This document shows positions 35,419 to 41,734 of a DNA stretch of 64,000 nt, in pieces; the first letter of the stretch is position 1, and each line of letters begins with the position of its first letter. A model generated the notes under the pieces. It was not told where the DNA came from, did no database searches, and saw nothing but the letters and a program-made list of their open reading frames with translations. Source of the DNA: Escherichia coli (GTDB lineage Bacteria > Pseudomonadota > Gammaproteobacteria > Enterobacterales > Enterobacteriaceae); NCBI RefSeq assembly GCF_024700885.2, contig NZ_CP117016.1. One strand, given 5' to 3'. The translations under genes and the position numbers were made by a program.

Positions 35419-35503
35419 GCCGAAGTGGCGAAATCGGTAGACGCAGTTGATTCAAAATCAACCGTAGAAATACGTGCCGGTTCGAGTCCGGCCTTCGGCA
35501 CCA
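35419..35503 (+). tRNA. leuX: tRNA-Leu (CAA), complete, 85 nt with encoded CCA
   Basis: GCCGAAGTGGCGAAATCGGTAGACGCAGTTGATTCAAAATCAACCGTAGAAATACGTGCCGGTTCGAGTCCGGCCTTCGGCACCA. It has a long variable arm and anticodon loop TTCAAAA. Confidence 0.97.
35479..35503 (+). repeat. direct repeat copy 1 (att core inside leuX 3' end)
   Basis: GGTTCGAGTCCGGCCTTCGGCACCA, identical to 41077-41101. Confidence 0.95.
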
Positions 35504-36016
35504 AGTCACTAAATTCCTTACAATACAGGTAGTTAGACAATAAAATCTGTCTCTTTTGCCTGTAAGAAATGCTCTGTTATGTCCCTTGAAAAAGCCGCTG
35601 TGGTTGATAGTGGTAATTGGGATGTTAACTCATAGCGGCGTGTAGTTCCAAGCGTCAAACACGTACTGACTCAACTTGAAAGCTATGACGTAGCCACTGT
35701 CTCTAAACAATCCCAAAAACTTTTAGTGAAGCGCATTTTAGCCCGATGCCCCCGTTCTGCCGCTGTCGCGAGACGCCGCAGGGGATAAACAGGTTTATGG
35801 TGGTCACGGTACTTGCAGACCATATGCAAGCTCTGCCAGCGGTTCGGCCTCGCTCCCCTTGGGTACATGGTCATCCTGATAAGCCTCACTAACTGACATA
35901 ACTGTGATGTAGTCGCCAGAGGCTCCGCTTGTTGTCTTACCACCAACGGGGCTTTATGGATTCTATTGCGGTATGTTTGAAAGTGCGCGGGGGTTCATTC
36001 CCGCGCGTCCGGCGCT

Positions 36017-36931
36017 TTATGGTAAGTATTTAAGTATTTCTGCTGCCCAGTTTACACGGTGGATGACACGGGCATGGTGCAAGTTTCCGTCTAGTATTTC
36101 GGCTTTAGTTAGCTGGGATAACTGCTGCCAATTATTGTTAAGTATATAAGTTGCGTTATTACATTGTGAGCTTTCTAGCACGTAAATGTTTTGGCCTGTG
36201 AACCCAAATATCACGTAGCCTTGGAACCCAGCTTGCCCAACCGCTACGAAATCTGGTTTTTTACTATTGATAAGTTCAAGTCTGCCTTCAACAACAGCGG
36301 TATTGCCCTTTCCCCTGATCTTAATAGCTGAAAGGATTTTTGAGCCGATAGTACTCCAAGGCTGTTGACCCTGAGGCAGGAGGCTCCAGTTTAGTTTTAT
36401 AGATTTACTTTTAACGATGGTATTAAGTTGGTCGTCAACAGTTTCGCACAACCCAAAAAGCTCTAAAAAAAGATTAATGCAGTGAGCCACTAACTCTTTG
36501 TTGTTAGCTGTCAAACTTAGCTTTGGAGAGATGATCAACTTCTCCCCTTGAAGATTCTCTACAATCTTTAACTCTATGCTTGGTGGAGGGGTGAGGATTC
36601 TCTTGTAGCGCTTATACTCAATTTCACGAGTGTCAGTAACTTCTTGAGTTGCGCCCCCTCCGATCCATTGCTTTCTAGTCCATGAAATTTGTCTGTATGC
36701 AGTTTCTTTAGGTGCTGTTTTGTCAGGTACTGATTTGCCATTAGCATTGAATCTGGTTATTGGCCCTAAAATCTTGGGGAGGACTTCTTCACCTAAAGCT
36801 CTTTGACTTGAGAAACCAATAGAGTCCGTTTTCCCCGCATCTGGCAAAGAATGTGCAATGTAGATATCACGGCCATCAAAGTTAGGTATGTAATTATCAA
36901 TATTTCGAATACGCTTTTTCTGAATAAGCAT
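36017..36931 (-). CDS. orphan 304-aa protein, no family recognised
   Basis: Long AT-rich ORF with SD AAGGAA 7 nt upstream of the ATG. A GCGCGGG..CCCGCGC hairpin lies after the stop. No motif that I can assign. Confidence 0.75.
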   Translation of the reverse strand: MLIQKKRIRNIDNYIPNFDGRDIYIAHSLPDAGKTDSIGFSSQRALGEEVLPKILGPITRFNANGKSVPDKTAPKETAYRQISWTRKQWIGGGATQEVTDTREIEYKRYKRILTPPPSIELKIVENLQGEKLIISPKLSLTANNKELVAHCINLFLELFGLCETVDDQLNTIVKSKSIKLNWSLLPQGQQPWSTIGSKILSAIKIRGKGNTAVVEGRLELINSKKPDFVAVGQAGFQGYVIFGFTGQNIYVLESSQCNNATYILNNNWQQLSQLTKAEILDGNLHHARVIHRVNWAAEILKYLP

Positions 36932-37062
36932 GGATCGTTCCTTTTGATTTTATCTTACTGTTTACATAACCAACCAAGCCGGGCACAATCGAGCCGTTAG
37001 AAACGATAGTGAGGCTAACAATCGTTATGAGTTTGCAGACTCATGGCGGTCATGCTTCATAG

Positions 37063-37094
37063 ACCGGATTCACGCAGGTGACTCCGGTTTTTTT
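37063..37094 (+). terminator. strong plus-strand rho-independent terminator with no upstream plus-strand ORF
   Basis: ACCGGA-T-TCAC GCAG GTGA-C-TCCGGT followed by seven T. The opposite strand lacks a U-run. Confidence 0.7.
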
Positions 37095-37787
37095 ATGCCC
37101 ATCATTTATACATGAGCACAACATATAGGGTGTGTTAATAAGATTACCCCCTACATGTTCAGCATTCTAGTTAGGATTCTTTGCAGTACAAGGGGTGATT
37201 TTGAGGTTAAATTGAGGTTGTCAAAGGGAAATTTCGACCAACCCTACGTGCCGTAAGGCTTAGGCTGTATGTCAATGTTTCAGAAAAAAAATGAAAATTT
37301 GATCGAGTGCTGATTTCTTTAGCACGAGAACATGAGATCGAACCAAAATATTGCAAAGTTTTGAACAAAACTTGAGCTGCCTCGTGTCTCCATAGCCAAG
37401 ACGAATGCAGTTTAAATAAGCTAAGTCAGCTCTCAAAAGTCCTTTATGACCCGAACCAAAAATTGTACCTCTTAAACCCCCACCGCAAGCGGCTCTCCGG
37501 GGTTTGTGCGCGTGGAGTAATGCGATTGTACTGGGTATGTGCGCACAACCCTCTACAAGCCGCATTCTACCGTTAGCCTATAGCTGAATCCCCGGCTTGA
37601 AAAATTGCACGCTTATGGTTGCCCCTCCCTCAACTGTATAGCTCGCCCGCGCCCCCGTGCGCATGTGCGTGCCCGCGCGTCAGGGGTCGCTGAGAAAACC
37701 CTAAGATTTTGCTCATCCGAGACAACCGTTGCAGGCGCGCGTTGCCGGGGCACACTGTTAGTGTTTGATGGTGTCATCAATCGACCG

Positions 37788-37884
37788 TTTTCTGGCACCT
37801 CCCAATCGCACGCTTTCACACTGTTGGAAAAATAGCCTTGGCTTTTCTGGCAGGCCATCCTAATGTTGGCCTCGTTTTCTGGCA
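37788..37884 (+). promoter_or_regulatory. three direct copies of TTTTCTGGCA upstream of the recombinase gene
   Basis: Copies at 37788-37797, 37843-37852 and 37875-37884. Copy 2 sits in the imperfect palindrome GAAAAATAGCC-TT-GGCTTTTCTG. Confidence 0.4.
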
Positions 37885-37906
37885 GGGGTCAGATGGGGAG
37901 ATAACA

Positions 37907-38467
37907 ATGGCAACTTTTGGCTACGGACGTGTTTCGACATCGCAGCAGGATACTGAGAACCAACGGCTGGAGCTTGGGCAGGCTGGGTGGCAAATTGATT
38001 ACTGGTTTGCCGATGTTGTTAGCGGGAAGGTTCCGGCAATGCAACGTAAAGCATTTTCTGAAATGCTCAATAAAATCCGCGATGGTGAAACGTTGGTGGT
38101 AGCGAAGCTTGATCGTCTGGGGCGTGATGCGATTGACGTCCTGCAAACGGTAAGGGCGCTGGCTGACCGTAATATCAAGGTTCTTGTCCACCAGCTTGGT
38201 AACACAGATCTCACTTCTGCCGCTGGGAAGTTGCTATTATCTATGCTCGCCGCGGTTGCGGAGATGGAGCGTGATCTGCTGATTGAGCGCACTCAGGCGG
38301 GACTATCACGAGCAAAAGCCGAAGGTAAGAAATTGGGCAGACCTCCTAAAATCGCGTCAGAAGCCCGTAGAGAGATTTTAGAGAAAAAGAATAGCGGTTT
38401 GAGTATCAGTGCGTTAGCGCGTCAATATGGCGTTTCAAGAGCGACTGTAGCAGCTATTACCGATTGA
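37907..38467 (+). CDS. small serine recombinase (resolvase/invertase family)
   Basis: Start at MATFGYGRVSTSQQ (catalytic Ser motif) with SD GGGGAG upstream. Contains DRLGRD and the C-terminal HTH GLSISALARQYGVSRATV. 186 aa. Confidence 0.9.
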   Translation: MATFGYGRVSTSQQDTENQRLELGQAGWQIDYWFADVVSGKVPAMQRKAFSEMLNKIRDGETLVVAKLDRLGRDAIDVLQTVRALADRNIKVLVHQLGNTDLTSAAGKLLLSMLAAVAEMERDLLIERTQAGLSRAKAEGKKLGRPPKIASEARREILEKKNSGLSISALARQYGVSRATVAAITD

Positions 38468-38480
38468 ATATGGAGAGTTT

Positions 38481-39326
38481 ATGGCTTACACAGCAACTGT
38501 TATCCCTGTAATGATTGCTTCTCCTGGTGATGTCGCTGAAGAGAGACAAGTCATTCGTGAAATGATCCATGAGTGGAATGATATAAATTCAGCTCGTTCA
38601 AAAGTAATGTTGACACCAATTGGATGGGAAACTCATACATCACCCGAATTAGGAGTTAGGCCTCAGAAGTTGATTAATCAAAGATTATTAGTAGATTGTG
38701 ATTTATTAATCGGTGTGTTTTGGACTCGTCTAGGCTCACCGACTGGGAACGAGGCCAGCGGAACAGTCGAAGAAATCCACCGTCATTTGAATGCGGGAAA
38801 ACCGGCAATGATTTACTTTTCCTCAAAGCCTGTTGCCCCTGAAAGCCTTGATAGAGAACAATATGAGTCTCTTAAATTGTTCAAAACTGAGTGCATGCAA
38901 AAGGGATTGATAGAGTCTTTTAATGACTTATCTGATTTCAAAGACAAAGTCCGTAGGCAACTTTCGATAATTATTTCTAGTAGCCCTTATTTGTCTTCTC
39001 TTATATCTACCATTAACAATTCTCCTGATGCGAATACAAGTCAATCTTTGCCAGAAAGTAATTTGTCCGCCGATGCACTCAGTTTGCTGAAATTGGCATG
39101 TGTCGATGATAGCGGAACAATTTATGTGATAAGGCATTTAGGTGGCACGGATATTCAAGCGGGAAATCAATCCTTTGGTGGAAGTTCGGCTAGAGAGGTA
39201 GCCCGTTGGGAGGGCGCACTTAACGAACTGTTATCCTTTGATTATGTGATTGAAAGAGGGGCAAAAGGACAAATGTATTATGTTACTCATAAAGGCTGGA
39301 CATTTCTTGAATCTTTAAATGAATAA
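38481..39326 (+). CDS. DUF4062 / TIR-like (nucleoside 2-deoxyribosyltransferase-like) N-terminal domain protein with an unknown C-terminal domain
   Basis: N-terminal VMIASPGDVAEER ... CDLLIGVFWTRLGSPTG..ASGTVEEIHRHLNAGKPAMIYFS matches my memory of the DUF4062 pattern. Lies 13 nt after the recombinase stop with SD GGAGAG upstream. Confidence 0.6.
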   Translation: MAYTATVIPVMIASPGDVAEERQVIREMIHEWNDINSARSKVMLTPIGWETHTSPELGVRPQKLINQRLLVDCDLLIGVFWTRLGSPTGNEASGTVEEIHRHLNAGKPAMIYFSSKPVAPESLDREQYESLKLFKTECMQKGLIESFNDLSDFKDKVRRQLSIIISSSPYLSSLISTINNSPDANTSQSLPESNLSADALSLLKLACVDDSGTIYVIRHLGGTDIQAGNQSFGGSSAREVARWEGALNELLSFDYVIERGAKGQMYYVTHKGWTFLESLNE

Positions 39327-39360
39327 TTAAATGCGAGGCCATTACATAAGTTTATTTTTG

Positions 39361-39390
39361 ATGTGAGGGTGAATTCCCTCACATTTTTAT
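39361..39390. terminator. bidirectional terminator between convergent genes
   Basis: ATGTGAGGG-TGAATTC-CCTCACAT hairpin with T-runs on both sides. Confidence 0.7.
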
Positions 39391-39881
39391 TCGAAAGAGG
39401 CCGCAATGACTTCTCCTGTTTTTGCGTTGAAAACACAAAAGTATTGAAGCGGAGCTAGCATCCCCAAGCCGTTAACTACCTTAGCTTGTTGCCCAAATGC
39501 CTGAATAATCTTCGCATTCTCATCGTGCCAGAGATAAGTATTAAATACAGGCGCTTCGCTTTCTTGCCACACATGGCGAAACTTCGCTTTCTCATCCATT
39601 ACCTTTTTGCACTCCCTGACCGGGTTATGGTGCGTTTTCGCATAGCATTCCGGGTTGTCATCTGCACATACGATATCTTTTCGTGCTGTCTGATGCTCAG
39701 CACCTACAGCAGAAAAGGCGCATACGCCCAGCACCAATGAGAGAGTGCCCAGAGCACCCCATACAGTTGCGCGTAGCGTGCTGATGTGCTGCTTTGATAC
39801 AGCATGGGCAACTACACTATAACTGGCCCAGCTAATCGCGGCTCCCGCTGCAATCGGTAGTAAAAAGTCTGCTCCCGTCAT
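39387..39881 (-). CDS. small membrane protein (2 predicted TM helices plus a Cys-containing soluble domain), unknown function
   Basis: Start chosen at MTGADFLLPIAAGAAISW with SD GAGGGAA upstream. A second hydrophobic stretch is VWGALGTLSLVLGVCAFSAV. Confidence 0.65.
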   Translation of the reverse strand: MTGADFLLPIAAGAAISWASYSVVAHAVSKQHISTLRATVWGALGTLSLVLGVCAFSAVGAEHQTARKDIVCADDNPECYAKTHHNPVRECKKVMDEKAKFRHVWQESEAPVFNTYLWHDENAKIIQAFGQQAKVVNGLGMLAPLQYFCVFNAKTGEVIAASFE

Positions 39882-39941
39882 GATTCCCTCACTTTCCAAA
39901 CCACATCGCGCCTGATAGCGAACGCTGGTGACGCCCAACCG

Positions 39942-39955
39942 ATGATGATCATCAT
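39942..39955. promoter_or_regulatory. perfect 14-bp palindrome in the divergent promoter region (candidate XRE operator)
   Basis: ATGATGATCATCAT (contains GATC), about 60 bp upstream of the 2-TM gene start. Confidence 0.4.
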
Positions 39956-40121
39956 ACTTGTTGGGTTTTAAATGTCACCATTGGTGTTTGTTTTGAATCA
40001 AAAAGGATTGTCATGATACAGCCGATGAATGCTAGTGACTAAGCTCGCTGACGTGAGATTGGATTCAAAATATCTCATATGGAGCGTGGCCTTACAGTGG
40101 TCAAAATTGCACATTCAGTGC

Positions 40122-40586
40122 ATGAAAAAATCCCTGAGAATACAGTTTGGCGAGCGGGTAAAAGAACTGCGCATTGCCACCGGATTGAGCCAGGAGGCCT
40201 TTGCCGATCGGTGCGGGTTTGCACGTAGTTATATGAGCAGAATTGAACGTGGTGGCTCTAATGCGTCTCTGGATGCGATTGAGGTGCTGGCTAACGCTCT
40301 GAGCGTTGAGCCGTGGCAGTTGTTAGCGCCTGGCCCATCTGAAGATAACGACTCGGAACTGTTGGTTCCATACGCAGCCGATGGTTCCTGTTTTCACCCC
40401 GGTTTGGCGAGCACCCGTGATGGCTCGTTTGGCGTAGGTGATAAAGCGGCTCAGAAGCGTTTTGGCACGTTTGCTGAAGCTCTTGAGTATCTTCGTAGCA
40501 TGGAGACAGCAAAATGGCGTAGGCCTAATCCTAGCGGCAACTGGGGTATCGTATCAGCGGTTCGGTGGGACAAACTGAGAAAGTAG
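40122..40586 (+). CDS. XRE-family HTH regulator with an approximately 85-aa C-terminal extension
   Basis: MKKSLRIQFGERVKELRIATGLSQEAFADRCGFARSYMSRIERGGSNASLDAIEVLANAL is a canonical Cro/C1 HTH. The start is uncertain: there is no clear SD, and an alternative start lies at 40029. Confidence 0.75.
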   Translation: MKKSLRIQFGERVKELRIATGLSQEAFADRCGFARSYMSRIERGGSNASLDAIEVLANALSVEPWQLLAPGPSEDNDSELLVPYAADGSCFHPGLASTRDGSFGVGDKAAQKRFGTFAEALEYLRSMETAKWRRPNPSGNWGIVSAVRWDKLRK

Positions 40587-40709
40587 CTCAAGTGTAAGTT
40601 TATGAATTTTCATGCTGTATGGATGAACAGTATTCATTAGATGCTGATAGTCTTATGTTTCATCAGCCCTTTGTTTCTATAAGAGTGAATAAAACAGCAA
40701 AATGCGGGT

Positions 40710-40739
40710 GCGTTACGTAGGCGTTACGGTGGCGTTTCG
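40710..40739 (+). repeat. three iteron-like GCGTTWCG repeats with 11-bp phasing
   Basis: GCGTTACG at 40710 and at 40721, and GCGTTTCG at 40732. Confidence 0.6.
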
Positions 40740-41076
40740 CTTTGGCTCTTAATGGCTTAATTCATATAAATAACATTGAGTTAAATAGTTATTCTGAACA
40801 AGGTCTGCCGGGGTCTAACTGGTTTCAAAATCCGAACGCAGTGGCGTTTATTCAACGTCCACATAGCTGACAAATGTTCTTTCCTCCCGACTCGGCAGAC
40901 CTCCAGAAACATTAAAAGGCAGGTATGGCACGTTGATGTTTTATGCCGCCACGAACACTCGGTTTGATTCCGTCCAGCGGATCAAACTTAATATGTAGCC
41001 CCTAGAACAAAAAGGTCCTACGATTGCTCTCTTAACAGCTAACAGGAACGTGATTACAGCAGGTTATAGAGACTTA

Positions 41077-41101
41077 GGTTCGAGTCCGGCCTTCGGCACC
41101 A
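41077..41101 (+). repeat. direct repeat copy 2 (leuX 3'-end remnant)
   Basis: GGTTCGAGTCCGGCCTTCGGCACCA with no tRNA body upstream. Confidence 0.95.
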
Positions 41102-41287: not shown

Positions 41288-41734
41288 ATGGCATTAACAG
41301 ATATCAAAGTCAGAGCAGCCAAGCCAACGGATAAGCAATATAAGCTGACTGATGGTGGCGGTATGCATCTGCTTGTCCATCCAAATGGTTCTAAGTACTG
41401 GCGTTTGCAGTACCGTTATGAGGGAAAGCAAAAAATGCTGGCACTTGGGGTTTATCCTGAAATCACACTAGCGGATGCCAGAGTACGTCGTGACGAGGCG
41501 CGTAAGCTGCTTGCGAATGGCGTCGATCCGGGAGACAAAAAGAAAAATGATAAGGTTGAACAGAGTAAAGCACGAACCTTTAAAGAAGTCGCGATTGAGT
41601 GGCATGGCACCAATAAAAAGTGGTCTGAAGATCACGCCCATCGTGTGCTAAAAAGTCTTGAAGATAATCTTTTTGCAGCGCTTGGTGAACGTAATATCGC
41701 TGAGTTAAAAACTCGAGATTTATTAGCACCTATT
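41288..41734 (+). pseudogene. intB: P4-type tyrosine integrase, N-terminal approximately 149 codons only
   Basis: MALTDIKVRAAKPTDKQYKLTDGGGMHLLVHPNGSKYWRLQYRY... is the conserved P4 Int/IntB N-terminus. Similarity stops after ...KTRDLLAPI, and no catalytic R..HxxR..Y domain follows. Confidence 0.85.

What the first reader, a model, noticed from the sequence alone, without database searches (positions are those of the whole stretch)
36017..36931. Orphan 304-aa protein with a good RBS and no recognisable domain
**Evidence that the gene is real.**
- The ORF is long.
- It has an AAGGAA SD 7 nt from the ATG.
- A GC hairpin follows the stop.

**Context.** The ORF is AT-rich relative to the backbone and is the first gene after leuX, where an integrase would normally sit. 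I find no catalytic or nucleotide-binding motif (no Walker A, no HxxR..Y, no obvious PD-(D/E)xK). It faces a 975-bp ORF-free region that carries a convergent terminator-bearing small transcript candidate. This raises the possibility of a protein-RNA pair, for example a toxin or effector with an antisense or regulatory RNA.
Basis: seen in the sequence. Interest (0 to 1): 0.6.

Follow-up and report, generated by a model that had tools for sequence, protein, structure and literature searches.

The report
Unnamed defence-island protein with antisense RNA
The 304-residue gene next to leuX is real but is not an orphan: it belongs to a large unnamed family that travels in anti-phage defence islands, usually next to antitoxin-type regulators, and in enterobacteria it sits behind a portable leader that encodes a small antisense RNA, so it is most likely a tightly repressed DNA-binding toxin or defence effector.

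Summary
**Gene.** The ORF (36017-36931, minus strand) is intact. Its RBS, post-stop hairpin, low G+C and position after leuX are all confirmed.

**"Orphan" is wrong.**
- About 2,000 clusters at 50% identity exist across Bacteria, CPR and Archaea.
- All are about 300 aa, with no fusions and no name.
- Pfam, NCBIfam, PHROGs and PDB sequence searches find nothing.

**Structure.** The AlphaFold model is confident (pLDDT 89).
- The N-terminal domain has no fold match.

**Context.**
- Homologues lie in defence islands, P4-like satellites and small plasmids.
- In 29 of 78 loci they are flanked by RmrA, CapH/CapP-like, LexA-like or PanA-like regulators, or by DUF2188.

**Enterobacterial leader.** These regulators are replaced by a conserved leader of about 390 bp.
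- It carries a sigma-70 promoter and a 226-nt 5'UTR.
- It also carries a convergent sRNA of about 99 nt (36996-37094, plus strand). The sRNA has its own promoter, a terminator and a structure that forms only on that strand.
- The same leader also drives an unrelated 88-aa gene.

**Best reading (about 0.5).** A repressed, DNA-binding toxin or abortive-infection effector. Its biochemistry is unknown.

The parts
36017..36931 (-). CDS of the 304-aa protein. It has an N-terminal domain (about 1-170, no fold match) and a C-terminal alpha/beta sandwich (about 178-304) with invariant E253, N259, T261, Y262, K276, R288, H291 and W295.
36938..36943 (-). Shine-Dalgarno AAGGAA, with a 6-nt spacer to the ATG.
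   Evidence: Sequence read. AAGGA is conserved in the Enterobacterales alignment A4.
35985..36007 (-). GC-rich hairpin just after the stop codon. It is a possible weak terminator.
   Evidence: Sequence read. The consensus terminator scan did not call it.
36996..37094 (+). Candidate cis-antisense sRNA of about 99 nt. It has a 5' single-stranded tail, a long central stem-loop and an intrinsic terminator (stem 37063-37088, T-run 37088-37094). It is fully complementary to about +63..+161 of the gene's 5'UTR.
   Evidence: Alignment A5 of 22 distinct sequences has 97.7% of cells paired, against 35-51% when partners are slid. The alifold energy is -35.8 kcal/mol on this strand and -15.2 on the other, with 233 G-U cells and 4 A-C cells. 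The single-sequence MFE is -41.1, z -5.5. The covariance model hits 36986-37094 on the plus strand at 113 bits.
36961..36989 (+). Sigma-70-type promoter of the sRNA (TTTACA, 17 nt, CACAAT).
   Evidence: Promoter scan. Both hexamers are conserved in 42 leaders. Homology between the two cargo types ends exactly at the -35 hexamer.
37164..37191 (-). Predicted sigma-70 promoter of the gene (-35 TTGTAC at 37186-37191, 16-nt spacer, -10 TAGAAT at 37164-37169). The inferred TSS is near 37157, which gives a 226-nt 5'UTR.
   Evidence: Read. Conserved in 42 unique leaders. The TSS is inferred, not measured.
37122..37157 (-). Conserved inverted repeat or 5'-terminal stem-loop (ATGTAG..N..CTACAT) at the predicted mRNA start. 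It could be an mRNA-stabilising hairpin or an operator.
   Evidence: The fold pairs positions 1-9 with 28-36. Three or four pairs show two or more Watson-Crick types across 29 leaders, with no strand preference.
37192..37356 (-). Upstream part of the conserved leader. It includes the direct repeats AACCTCAA..AACCTCAAAA next to the -35 hexamer and a TTGACA-containing block. This part probably carries regulator binding sites.
   Evidence: Homology at 73-77% extends to -388/-425 from the ATG in L007, L085, L088 and L089. The promoter-proximal half (window 37118-37329) also occurs alone on about 30 plasmids.
35419..35503 (+). leuX, tRNA-Leu(CAA). Its 3' end is the left copy of the islet's direct repeat.
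   Evidence: ARAGORN. Rfam. Repeat search.
41077..41101 (+). Right copy of the 25-nt direct repeat of the leuX 3' end. Together with 35479-35503 it delimits a 5.6-kb islet that holds the gene.

Best explanation
**What it is.** The ORF encodes an intact member of a large, unnamed, horizontally mobile protein family. I read it as the effector (toxin) of a minimal toxin-antitoxin-type, abortive-infection-type anti-phage module.

**The protein.** It has two domains.
- The N-terminal domain has no recognisable fold.
- The C-terminal alpha/beta sandwich is probably a distant relative of the ZorC EH-signature domain. In Zorya that domain binds dsDNA through its conserved Glu and His. By inference this protein binds DNA through E253 and H291.
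- What it then does is unknown. It might block replication, cut DNA or recruit something else.

**Why regulation points to harm.** Because the protein is potentially harmful, evolution has repeatedly placed it under tight, derepressible control.
- In other phyla the control is an RmrA-type HTH-peptidase, a CapH/CapP-like pair, a LexA-like repressor, an HTH-Panacea antitoxin or a DUF2188 (HicB-like) protein.
- In Enterobacterales the control is a portable 390-bp leader.

**Proposed mechanism in this window.**
1. A sigma-70 promoter near 37164-37191 makes an mRNA with a 226-nt 5'UTR.
2. A convergent promoter at 36961-36989 makes an sRNA of about 99 nt that is fully complementary to the middle of that UTR.
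3. Duplex formation or transcriptional collision keeps the protein off.
4. Loss of the sRNA releases the effector. Host transcription shut-off or RNA turnover during infection or DNA damage could cause that loss.

**Shown here:**
- the gene is real;
- the family is large and widely spread;
- the neighbourhood statistics;
- the sRNA promoter, terminator and strand-specific structure are conserved.

**Inferred only:** DNA binding, toxicity, anti-phage function and the direction of sRNA control.
For: **The family is real and conserved.**
- Identity is about 45% between E. coli, Kosmotoga, Methanobacterium and cyanobacteria, with 38 invariant columns.
- There are 2,018 representative clusters, all about 300 aa with a single matched stretch.

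**Defence and MGE context.**
- A type III R-M system lies 3.4 kb downstream in Kosmotoga. SIR2 and HATPase_c_3 genes flank it in Methanobacterium.
- The -1/+1 neighbours include Shedu, Gabija GajA, RloB, CBASS cyclases, SLATT, GmrSD, OLD-TOPRIM, RES and a type II restriction enzyme.
- It occurs on small plasmids beside BrnTA or RelE/Phd systems, and directly after a 1,560-aa helicase-like protein (annotated DEAD/DEAH box helicase) on a Lactococcus plasmid.
- It occurs in P4-like satellite settings. In P4 hotspots 6 of 8 randomly chosen loci of unknown genes proved defensive (PMC13586616).

**Antitoxin-type partners.**
- In 29 of 78 loci, a partner lies within 3 ORFs: M78 peptidase in 12, LexA-like in 10, DUF2188 in 10, HTH-Panacea in 3.
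- PADLOC RmrA hits 5 upstream neighbours at down to E 1e-107. capP hits 4, and PDC-S16 (DUF2188) hits 8.
- The literature says RmrA pairs with diverse toxins of unknown fold.
- It also says CapH/CapP sit divergently upstream of 'hypothetical + DUF2188' operons.

**ZorC link.**
- The PADLOC ZorC EH-signature HMM hits 6 of 43 members, best E 8.7e-4. It aligns to residues about 247-310, which include the invariant E253, H291 and W295.
- ZorC E400 and H443 are required for dsDNA binding and defence.

**sRNA.** The same leader precedes a different 88-aa cargo in about 14-17 loci, so it is a regulatory cassette in its own right.

**Consistent with a cost.** Alleles truncated at codon 254 occur on 88 contigs, against 145 contigs with the intact gene.
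Against: - No toxicity, phage or RNA expression data exist for any family member.
- 49 of 78 loci show none of the regulator types. The gene can therefore stand alone, which is unusual for a strong toxin.
- The sRNA does not overlap the RBS; it ends 65 nt upstream of the ATG. A simple translational block is therefore not evident.
- Covariation is concentrated in the terminator stem. The central stem is almost invariant.
- The gene has no transmembrane segment and no known catalytic motif.
- Neighbour genes were called with a crude longest-ORF caller.
Confidence: 0.5

Rival explanations
1. Addiction or stabilisation module only. The gene and its antisense sRNA form a type I-like toxin-antitoxin pair whose role is to keep the leuX islet, satellite or plasmid in the lineage, with no anti-phage role.
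For: - The antisense sRNA architecture resembles other type I pairs.
- The gene occurs on small plasmids next to other TA systems.
- The islet is bounded by direct repeats and lacks its own tyrosine integrase.
Against: - The neighbours are mostly defence genes, not only plasmid-maintenance genes.
- RmrA- and CapH/CapP-type partners are documented for phage defence.
- Type I toxins are normally peptides of under 60 aa that act on the membrane. This protein is 304 aa and soluble.
Confidence: 0.15
2. A DNA-damage (SOS-type) response protein of mobile elements. It would be a non-toxic DNA-binding factor used for repair, replication restart or element induction, and switched on by LexA-like or ImmA/IrrE-type regulators.
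For: - LexA-like repressors sit directly and divergently upstream in about 10 loci. ImmA/IrrE-type peptidases occur in 12 loci.
- CapP, ImmA and IrrE are activated by DNA damage.
- The C-domain resembles DNA-binding folds: ZorC, the TnsE C-terminal domain and the MotA C-terminal domain.
Against: - The distribution is patchy and horizontally transferred. Only about 1.7% of E. coli genomes carry the gene, and it sits in defence islands.
- Pairing with Panacea, RmrA and DUF2188 is typical of toxins, not repair factors.
- Truncated alleles are frequent.
Confidence: 0.15
3. A stand-alone modification-dependent (type IV) restriction nuclease or other nuclease. The N-domain would read DNA and the C-domain would cut it, and the gene needs no partner.
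For: - The gene is solitary, has no cognate methyltransferase and lies in defence islands.
- Sequence conservation across phyla is high, as is typical of R-M enzymes.
- Acidic, Lys and His residues are conserved.
Against: - There is no PD-(D/E)xK, HNH, GIY-YIG or PLD signature, and no nuclease family hit in Pfam or PADLOC.
- A constitutively safe type IV enzyme would not need antitoxin-type regulators.
Confidence: 0.1
4. The conserved plus-strand element does not regulate this gene. It could be a trans-acting sRNA of the satellite or islet, or merely a terminator that insulates the cargo. In that case the gene is controlled only at its promoter.
For: - The sRNA does not overlap the RBS or start codon (coordinates).
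- The leader is shared with an unrelated 88-aa cargo, so the RNA is not specific to this protein.
- The promoter half of the leader occurs without the sRNA part on about 30 plasmids.
Against: - The sRNA always lies inside the 5'UTR in antisense orientation, and there is one copy per locus.
- Convergent promoters about 170 bp apart almost inevitably interfere with each other.
- The cassette boundary coincides with the sRNA -35 hexamer.
Confidence: 0.1

Closest known systems
ZorC (EH-signature domain protein) of type I Zorya
   Same: - The ZorC HMM aligns to the stretch that carries the invariant Glu and His.
- Both occur in anti-phage contexts.
- The ZorC EH motif binds dsDNA.
   Different: - This protein is 304 aa against 560 aa for ZorC. 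It lacks the rest of the ZorC core and the C-terminal globular domain.
- No ZorA, ZorB or ZorD appears among the 25 most frequent families listed for its immediate neighbours.
- It does not reach Pfam EH_Signature.
- Its N-terminal domain is unrelated.
RosmerTA (RmrT toxin + RmrA HTH/Zn-peptidase antitoxin) and CapH/CapP-regulated operons
   Same: - Five upstream neighbours are strong RmrA matches. At least 8 further loci carry split HTH + M78 pairs placed divergently upstream, as described for CapH/CapP.
- DUF2188 lies downstream, as in the 'DUF2188 + hypothetical protein' operons of Lau et al..
- RmrT toxins are diverse and lack known domains.
   Different: - The protein matches no RmrT model in PADLOC.
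- Most loci, including this E. coli locus, have no RmrA or CapH/CapP next to the gene.
- The one characterised RmrT (phage Kita) is membrane-depolarising, whereas this protein is soluble.
Type I toxin-antitoxin pairs with a cis-antisense RNA to the 5'UTR (hok/Sok, SymE/SymR) and IS10 RNA-IN/RNA-OUT (comparison from my own knowledge)
   Same: - A convergent promoter pair makes a short, highly structured, terminator-ended RNA that is fully complementary to the leader of a potentially harmful gene on a mobile element.
   Different: - The protein is 304 aa rather than a small peptide.
- The sRNA does not cover the RBS or start codon.
- The RNA matches no Rfam family.
- The cassette is shared between unrelated cargos.
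PanA/PanT (Panacea antitoxin) systems
   Same: Three or four loci have an HTH-Panacea (DUF4065) protein within 3 ORFs upstream. One of them (L023) is co-directional with a 45-nt gap.
   Different: This is a minority of loci. No neutralisation has been tested.

Membership tests
ZorC / EH_Signature domain (Pfam PF15611; PADLOC ZorC) | Significant match to the family HMM | tested here: inconclusive
   - Pfam gives no EH_Signature hit for any of 43 members at E<=0.5.
- The PADLOC ZorC HMM hits 6 of 43 members at E 8.7e-4 to 1. The match covers only profile positions about 385-450 of 465.
ZorC / EH_Signature domain (Pfam PF15611; PADLOC ZorC) | Conserved Glu and His of the EH motif, set in an electrostatic network with Trp residues | tested here: inconclusive
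   - E253, H291, W268 and W295 are invariant in 43 sequences and lie in the HMM-aligned stretch.
- The residue-by-residue equivalence to ZorC E400 and H443 could not be checked.
ZorC / EH_Signature domain (Pfam PF15611; PADLOC ZorC) | Structural similarity to the ZorC core | tested here: inconclusive
   [not shown]
Zorya system | zorA-zorB(-zorC-zorD) operon context | tested here: not met
   - No Zor protein appears among the 25 most frequent families that Pfam and PADLOC list for the -1/+1 neighbours of 74 loci.
- No recurrent cluster of ZorA- or ZorD-sized proteins turned up in the +-8 kb clustering.
RosmerTA | Adjacent RmrA (HTH + ImmA-type Zn-peptidase) antitoxin gene | tested here: inconclusive
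   - Met in 5 loci with fused RmrA (E down to 1e-107), and 12 loci have an M78 peptidase within 3 ORFs.
- Not met in this window. blastx of the 975-bp upstream region finds no remnant.
RosmerTA | Toxin matches a known RmrT model; toxicity is neutralised by RmrA | tested here: not met
   No RmrT hit for 43 members at E<=1. Toxicity and neutralisation cannot be tested with these tools.
Type I toxin-antitoxin system | Antisense RNA gene overlapping the toxin mRNA, with its own promoter and terminator | tested here: met
   - Promoter at 36961-36989.
- Terminator and strand-specific structure.
- One copy per Enterobacterales locus.
- Expression itself is not shown.
Type I toxin-antitoxin system | Small hydrophobic peptide toxin; the RNA blocks translation or triggers decay | tested here: not met
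   - The protein is 304 aa and has no obvious hydrophobic, membrane-spanning stretch by inspection of its sequence.
- The sRNA ends 65 nt upstream of the ATG.
- The effect on the mRNA cannot be tested here.
Tyrosine or serine integrase (expected first gene after leuX) | Recombinase catalytic domain | tested here: not met
   No Phage_integrase, Resolvase or Recombinase hit. A separate serine recombinase lies at 37907-38467.
PD-(D/E)xK / HNH / GIY-YIG nucleases (type II or type IV restriction) | Catalytic motif or HMM/fold match | tested here: not met
   [not shown]

The most novel reading that the evidence does not exclude
The family is a previously unrecognised single-gene anti-phage system.
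- It would be a minimal, stand-alone EH-signature-like DNA sensor fused to an effector domain of new fold, evolutionarily linked to Zorya's ZorC.
- Its toxicity would be held in check by at least five interchangeable derepression modules.
- One of those modules is a new, portable enterobacterial 'promoter + 5'UTR + convergent antisense sRNA' cassette that is swapped between unrelated cargo genes in leuX islets and P4-like satellites.
Probability: 0.3. Interest if true: 0.75.

Novelty: new variant of a known kind. Interest (0 to 1): 0.6.

Why it matters
**The protein family.**
- It has about 2,000 representative clusters from E. coli to CPR bacteria and methanogens, yet no name, no Pfam entry and no fold match for its N-terminal domain.
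- Its context says it is one of the effectors that RmrA, CapH/CapP, LexA-like and Panacea modules control.
- Characterising it would add a defence or toxin effector of new fold.
- If the ZorC link holds, it would also give a minimal model for what the enigmatic EH-signature domain does.

**The 390-bp leader.**
- It is a compact, transferable regulatory cassette that Enterobacterales reuse for different cargos.
- It offers a directly testable case of antisense-RNA control of a large defence-island protein.
- It could also serve as a marker for finding further cargos.

Tried and rejected
**Standard annotation of the protein.** Pfam, NCBIfam, PADLOC and PHROGs gave nothing usable for the window protein itself. 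The PDB sequence profile gave only noise: Pvc7 and a blue copper protein at E about 1.

**Fold searches.**
- Foldseek against the PDB gave no hit with E<=0.001. The pore-forming-toxin hits only reflect the long beta-hairpin.
- The afdb50 fold library was unavailable.

**Integrase-like or transposase-like gene.** I rejected this.
- There is no recombinase domain.
- The leader is single-copy per E. coli genome.
- The gene is not tied to tRNA sites outside Enterobacterales.

**Invertible promoter switch.** A small recombinase is always nearby, so I considered this. No flanking inverted repeats were found, and every listed E. coli match was a single collinear piece. I did not pursue it further.

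**Remnants of a lost regulator gene.** blastx of the 975-bp gap found none.

**LexA box in the leader.** I found none by eye.

**Rfam.** Nothing matched the leader or sRNA at E<=1.

**Literature.**
- Four accession numbers of the family returned no paper.
- Burroughs & Aravind 2020 on DUF2188 is not held.
- I could not check whether the Extensimonas 'hypothetical proteins' of Lau et al. belong to this family.
- I could not obtain a ZorC sequence for a profile-profile alignment.

**Other weak hits.** The HORMA, DndF and Colicin_immun hits to single members look like noise.
Full report
**1.

The window has a 304-codon ORF at 36017-36931 on the minus strand.
- An AAGGAA Shine-Dalgarno lies at 36938-36943, 6 nt before the ATG. 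A GC-rich hairpin at 35985-36007 follows the stop (sequence).
- tRNA-Leu(CAA), leuX, lies at 35419-35503. The ORF is the first gene after it.
- RefSeq annotates the identical protein (WP_000908169.1) as 'hypothetical' and annotates nothing between 36932 and 37906.
- G+C is 41-43% over the gene and its upstream region, against 52-56% in the ahr/yjgR backbone.
- The full 3.1-kb segment is present in 84 of 5,426 complete E. coli genomes. The leader alone is present in 96.

**2. The protein is not an orphan**

- A word-indexed search found 722 homologues. Identity is about 45% over the full length in Kosmotoga, Methanobacterium, cyanobacteria, Desulfobacterales and Methylobacter.
- An exhaustive HMM search of 1.84 billion representatives found 2,018 clusters at E<=1e-3 and 422 at E<=1e-30. 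All of the best 150 are about 300 aa with one matched stretch, so there are no fusions.
- At least 193 GTDB species representatives encode a relative. They include many Patescibacteria, Bacteroidota, Chloroflexota, Actinomycetota and Archaea.
- An alignment of 43 diverse members has 38 invariant columns. These include E76, R108, R111, H150, N153, E253, N259, T261, Y262, K276, R288, H291 and five Trp.
- Every source calls these proteins hypothetical. No paper cites the four accession numbers I tried.

**3. What the protein looks like**

Sequence libraries give nothing significant: Pfam, NCBIfam, PADLOC and PHROGs, and a profile search of PDB sequences.

The AlphaFold2 model built from the 43-sequence alignment is confident (pLDDT 89.1). 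Its pTM is only 0.54, which fits two domains joined by a flexible linker near residues 170-180.
- Foldseek against the PDB finds nothing at E<=0.001.

A second, independent signal also points to ZorC.
- The PADLOC ZorC 'EH signature' HMM hits 6 of 43 family members, best E 8.7e-4.
- For the family consensus and two members, the match is residues about 247-310 against profile positions 385-450 of 465. That stretch holds the invariant E253, H291 and W295.
- In E. coli ZorC, the EH motif (E400, H443) sits in an electrostatic network with Trp residues. It is required for sequence-independent dsDNA binding and for defence (PMC11946911).

Each signal is sub-threshold. Pfam's EH_Signature is not hit, and the 25 most frequent families listed for the immediate neighbours include no Zorya genes. 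I therefore treat 'divergent EH-signature-like DNA-binding domain' as a lead with a probability of about 0.6. I do not treat it as family membership.

**4. Where the family lives**

I called ORFs in 82 homologue loci and clustered all neighbours.
- No partner is obligatory.
- Pfam and PADLOC scans of the immediate -1/+1 neighbours of about 74 loci show defence-island content. This includes Shedu, GajA, RloB/AAA_15, CBASS cyclases, SLATT_5, GmrSD_N, HsdR_N, OLD-TOPRIM, RES, Schlafen/AlbA_2, AbiLii, a type II restriction enzyme and several PADLOC candidate families.
- The Kosmotoga copy lies 3.4 kb upstream of a type III R-M-like pair. The Methanobacterium copy is next to SIR2_2 and HATPase_c_3 genes and an integrase.
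- tblastn finds the family on 18 plasmids. On a Lactococcus cremoris SK11 plasmid it lies 18 nt after a 1,560-aa protein annotated as a DEAD/DEAH box helicase. On small Acinetobacter and Latilactobacillus plasmids it lies beside BrnTA or RelE/Phd.
- It is rare in phages: 1 of 50,697 phage records and 8 of 2.9 million IMG/VR contigs.

**5. Recurrent regulator and antitoxin partners**

In 29 of 78 non-redundant loci, at least one of the following lies within three ORFs:
- an M78 (ImmA/IrrE-type) Zn-peptidase, in 12 loci;
- a LexA-like wHTH + S24 repressor, in 10 loci, mostly directly and divergently upstream in Patescibacteria;
- a DUF2188 protein, in 10 loci, typically immediately downstream and often overlapping the stop codon;
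- an HTH-Panacea (DUF4065) protein, in 3 loci;
- or a short XRE HTH protein.

PADLOC identifies 5 upstream neighbours as RmrA (E down to 1e-107) and 4 as CapP. It identifies the DUF2188 proteins as its candidate PDC-S16.

The literature gives these partners a clear meaning.
- RmrA is the antitoxin of RosmerTA defence systems, which pair it with diverse toxins of unknown fold (bioRxiv 10.1101/2022.05.11.491447; PMC10440598).
- CapH/CapP are DNA-damage-responsive repressor and protease pairs. They sit divergently upstream of CBASS and of other putative defence operons, including 'two hypothetical proteins + DUF2188' (bioRxiv 10.1101/2022.04.27.489752). Loci L017, L031, L032, L038 and L083 have exactly that layout. 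I could not verify that the published Extensimonas proteins are family members.
- DUF2188 has been linked to HicB-like antitoxins (PMC13621843).

Several unrelated derepression or antitoxin modules converge on one cargo. This is my main argument that the cargo is harmful when expressed.

**6. The Enterobacterales solution: a portable leader with an antisense sRNA**

In E. coli and its relatives none of those proteins is adjacent. blastx of the 975-bp gap finds no remnant of them.

Instead, about 390 bp upstream of the ATG is conserved at 73-77% in Enterobacter, Kluyvera, Leclercia, Ewingella and Pectobacterium. That is as well conserved as the coding region, or better.

A 30-nt motif from this region retrieved 43 metagenomic and 3 viral contigs. 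Together with the loci already held, these gave 42 unique leaders.

Read in the sense of the gene, the leader holds:
- a TTGTAC-16-TAGAAT promoter (37191-37164);
- a conserved inverted repeat or 5' stem-loop at the predicted start near 37157, with compensatory changes but no strand preference;
- a second small hairpin;
- a block of about 100 nt that is the most conserved part of the whole locus.

On the plus strand, that block has the features of an sRNA gene.
- It is preceded by a TTTACA-17-CACAAT promoter at 36961-36989.
- It ends in a 10-bp hairpin followed by seven T (37063-37094).
- RNAalifold gives -35.8 kcal/mol for the plus strand and -15.2 for the minus strand. The plus-strand structure has 233 G-U cells and only 4 A-C cells, so it cannot form on the mRNA strand.
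- In 22 distinct sequences, 97.7% of cells are paired, against 35-51% when partners are slid. Six pairs carry double changes (0 of 500 shuffles reach this). These lie mostly in the terminator stem, and the central stem is nearly invariant.
- The E. coli sequence folds to -41.1 kcal/mol, z -5.5.
- A covariance model finds exactly one copy in the window (36986-37094, plus strand, 113 bits). It finds one copy in eight of the nine other enterobacterial loci searched, missing only the divergent Pantoea locus L087. It finds none in the non-enterobacterial loci.
- Rfam has no match.

The sRNA is therefore convergent with the gene's promoter and fully complementary to about +63..+161 of a 226-nt 5'UTR. 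It stops 65 nt short of the ATG.

**7. The leader is a cassette, not part of the gene**

- In about 14-17 of the retrieved loci, and in E. coli S1-INA-02-B (L090), the same leader precedes an unrelated 88-aa protein. That protein has only a weak, sub-threshold RMF-like match. In five loci a DUF4062 protein follows it.
- Homology between the two cargo types ends exactly at the -35 hexamer of the sRNA promoter.
- The leader is always preceded by a small recombinase. It is a 186-aa tyrosine recombinase in 17 loci and a serine recombinase of about 190 aa in 12 loci, including this window.
- Several carriers are P4-like satellites or prophage-like elements. In P4 hotspots, 6 of 8 randomly chosen loci of unknown genes gave phage protection (PMC13586616). 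None of the systems named there obviously corresponds to this protein.
- In the window, the gene lies in a 5.6-kb islet bounded by a 25-nt direct repeat of the leuX 3' end (35479-35503 and 41077-41101). A truncated P4-type integrase follows it.
- The segment 35355-37634 is 98% identical in Enterobacter chuandaensis and Kluyvera ascorbata. This indicates recent transfer between genera.

**8. Interpretation**

The most economical reading is a repressed effector or toxin of a minimal TA-type, abortive-infection-type defence module. The effector probably acts on or through DNA.

In this window the repression would be exerted by the convergent antisense sRNA, through duplex-dependent decay or transcriptional interference. 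A still unknown factor binding the direct repeats at the -35 hexamer may add to it. Release would follow when transcription or RNA stability is perturbed.

What is shown:
- the gene is real;
- the family is large and widely spread;
- the neighbourhood composition;
- the sRNA promoter, terminator and strand-specific structure are conserved;
- the cassette is modular.

What is inferred:
- DNA binding;
- toxicity;
- anti-phage role;
- the sign and mechanism of sRNA control.

A premature stop at codon 254 removes every invariant residue after E253. It occurs on 88 contigs, against 145 contigs with the intact gene. This fits a fitness cost but may reflect one clonal event.

The rivals are not excluded:
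- a pure addiction module;
- an SOS or DNA-damage factor of mobile elements;
- a solitary nuclease;
- an sRNA that does not regulate the gene.

**9. Novelty and score**

The kind of system is known: a toxin or defence effector under antitoxin or derepressible control. This effector family, however, is unnamed, structurally new in its N-terminal half, and at best a remote stand-alone offshoot of the ZorC EH-signature domain. The enterobacterial antisense-sRNA leader matches nothing in Rfam.

I rate the finding a new variant of a known kind, with interest 0.6.

Noticed in passing
window 35479-35503 and 41077-41101; islet 35504-41101: A 25-nt direct repeat of the leuX 3' end bounds a 5.6-kb islet. 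The islet holds the 304-aa gene, the leader, a serine recombinase, a DUF4062 protein, a 165-183-aa hypothetical protein and an XRE HTH protein. A truncated P4-type tyrosine integrase follows at about 41288-41734, so this looks like a tandem array of elements at leuX.
   Followed up: partly
loci L095, L096, L098, L102, L109, L112-L114, L116-L119, L123, L124, L126, L132; L090 6703-6969: The same 390-bp leader and sRNA cassette precedes an unrelated 88-aa protein (MPICKQAHRYNS..GRHKCCGCAYDQGY..). That protein has only a sub-threshold RMF-like Pfam match and about 45-48% identical homologues in four phage records (Escherichia, Salmonella and Providencia phages). In five loci a 353-aa DUF4062 protein follows it.
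   Followed up: partly
window 37118-37329 (promoter half of the leader): This half, without the sRNA part, matches about 30 Klebsiella, Citrobacter, Enterobacter, Kosakonia, Salmonella and Leclercia plasmids at 74-80% identity, with no gene annotated underneath. It seems to be a mobile promoter or operator block.
   Followed up: partly
window 38481-39326 (+): The DUF4062 protein directly after the serine recombinase matches the N-terminus of PADLOC candidate PDC-S60 (E 1.3e-26). It is a second possible defence gene in the islet.
   Followed up: no
window 37786-37797, 37843-37856, 37873-37886: Three direct copies of (CG)TTTTCTGGCAGG lie just upstream of and into the start of the serine recombinase gene (37907-38467). 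They may be recombinase or regulator binding sites.
   Followed up: no
loci around the leader; window 37907-38467: A small site-specific recombinase always lies upstream of the leader. It is a 186-aa tyrosine recombinase, co-directional, in 17 loci, or a serine recombinase of about 190 aa, divergent, in 12 loci. I considered an invertible switch, but found no flanking inverted repeats and no inverted alleles.
   Followed up: partly
E. coli alleles P0121, P0122, P0127, P0025 of window 36017-36931: Many E. coli copies are truncated. A stop at codon 254, right after the invariant E253, occurs on 63+25 contigs. Frameshifted and N-terminally altered forms also exist. The intact gene occurs on 145 contigs.
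   Followed up: partly
window 37489-37563: A GC-rich 23-nt imperfect inverted repeat (74% complementary, 29 nt between the arms) lies in the non-conserved, G+C-rich part of the gap between the leader and the recombinase gene.
   Followed up: no
window 40029-40586 (+): The XRE-family HTH protein of the islet matches PADLOC 'control protein' (E 1.9e-18) and capH (E 2.4e-10) models. It lies 3 kb from the 304-aa gene and has no peptidase partner. It might bind the direct repeats in the leader.
   Followed up: no
loci L017, L043, L046, L047 (ORF directly upstream of the homologue, same strand): Where CapH/CapP-like or LexA-like regulators are divergent, a small gene (76-118 aa) is often wedged between them and the homologue. 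Several of these look GIY-YIG-like by eye (GVY..Y.VG...R...H). Others (L024, L032) resemble each other but nothing I could name.
   Followed up: no
window 35683-35946 (-) and L005, L008, L089: The 513-bp stretch between the stop codon and leuX is partly conserved in Enterobacter, Pantoea and Leclercia. It carries an Arg-rich 80-87-aa ORF that one gene caller annotated. I did not resolve whether it codes for protein or is RNA or att sequence.
   Followed up: no
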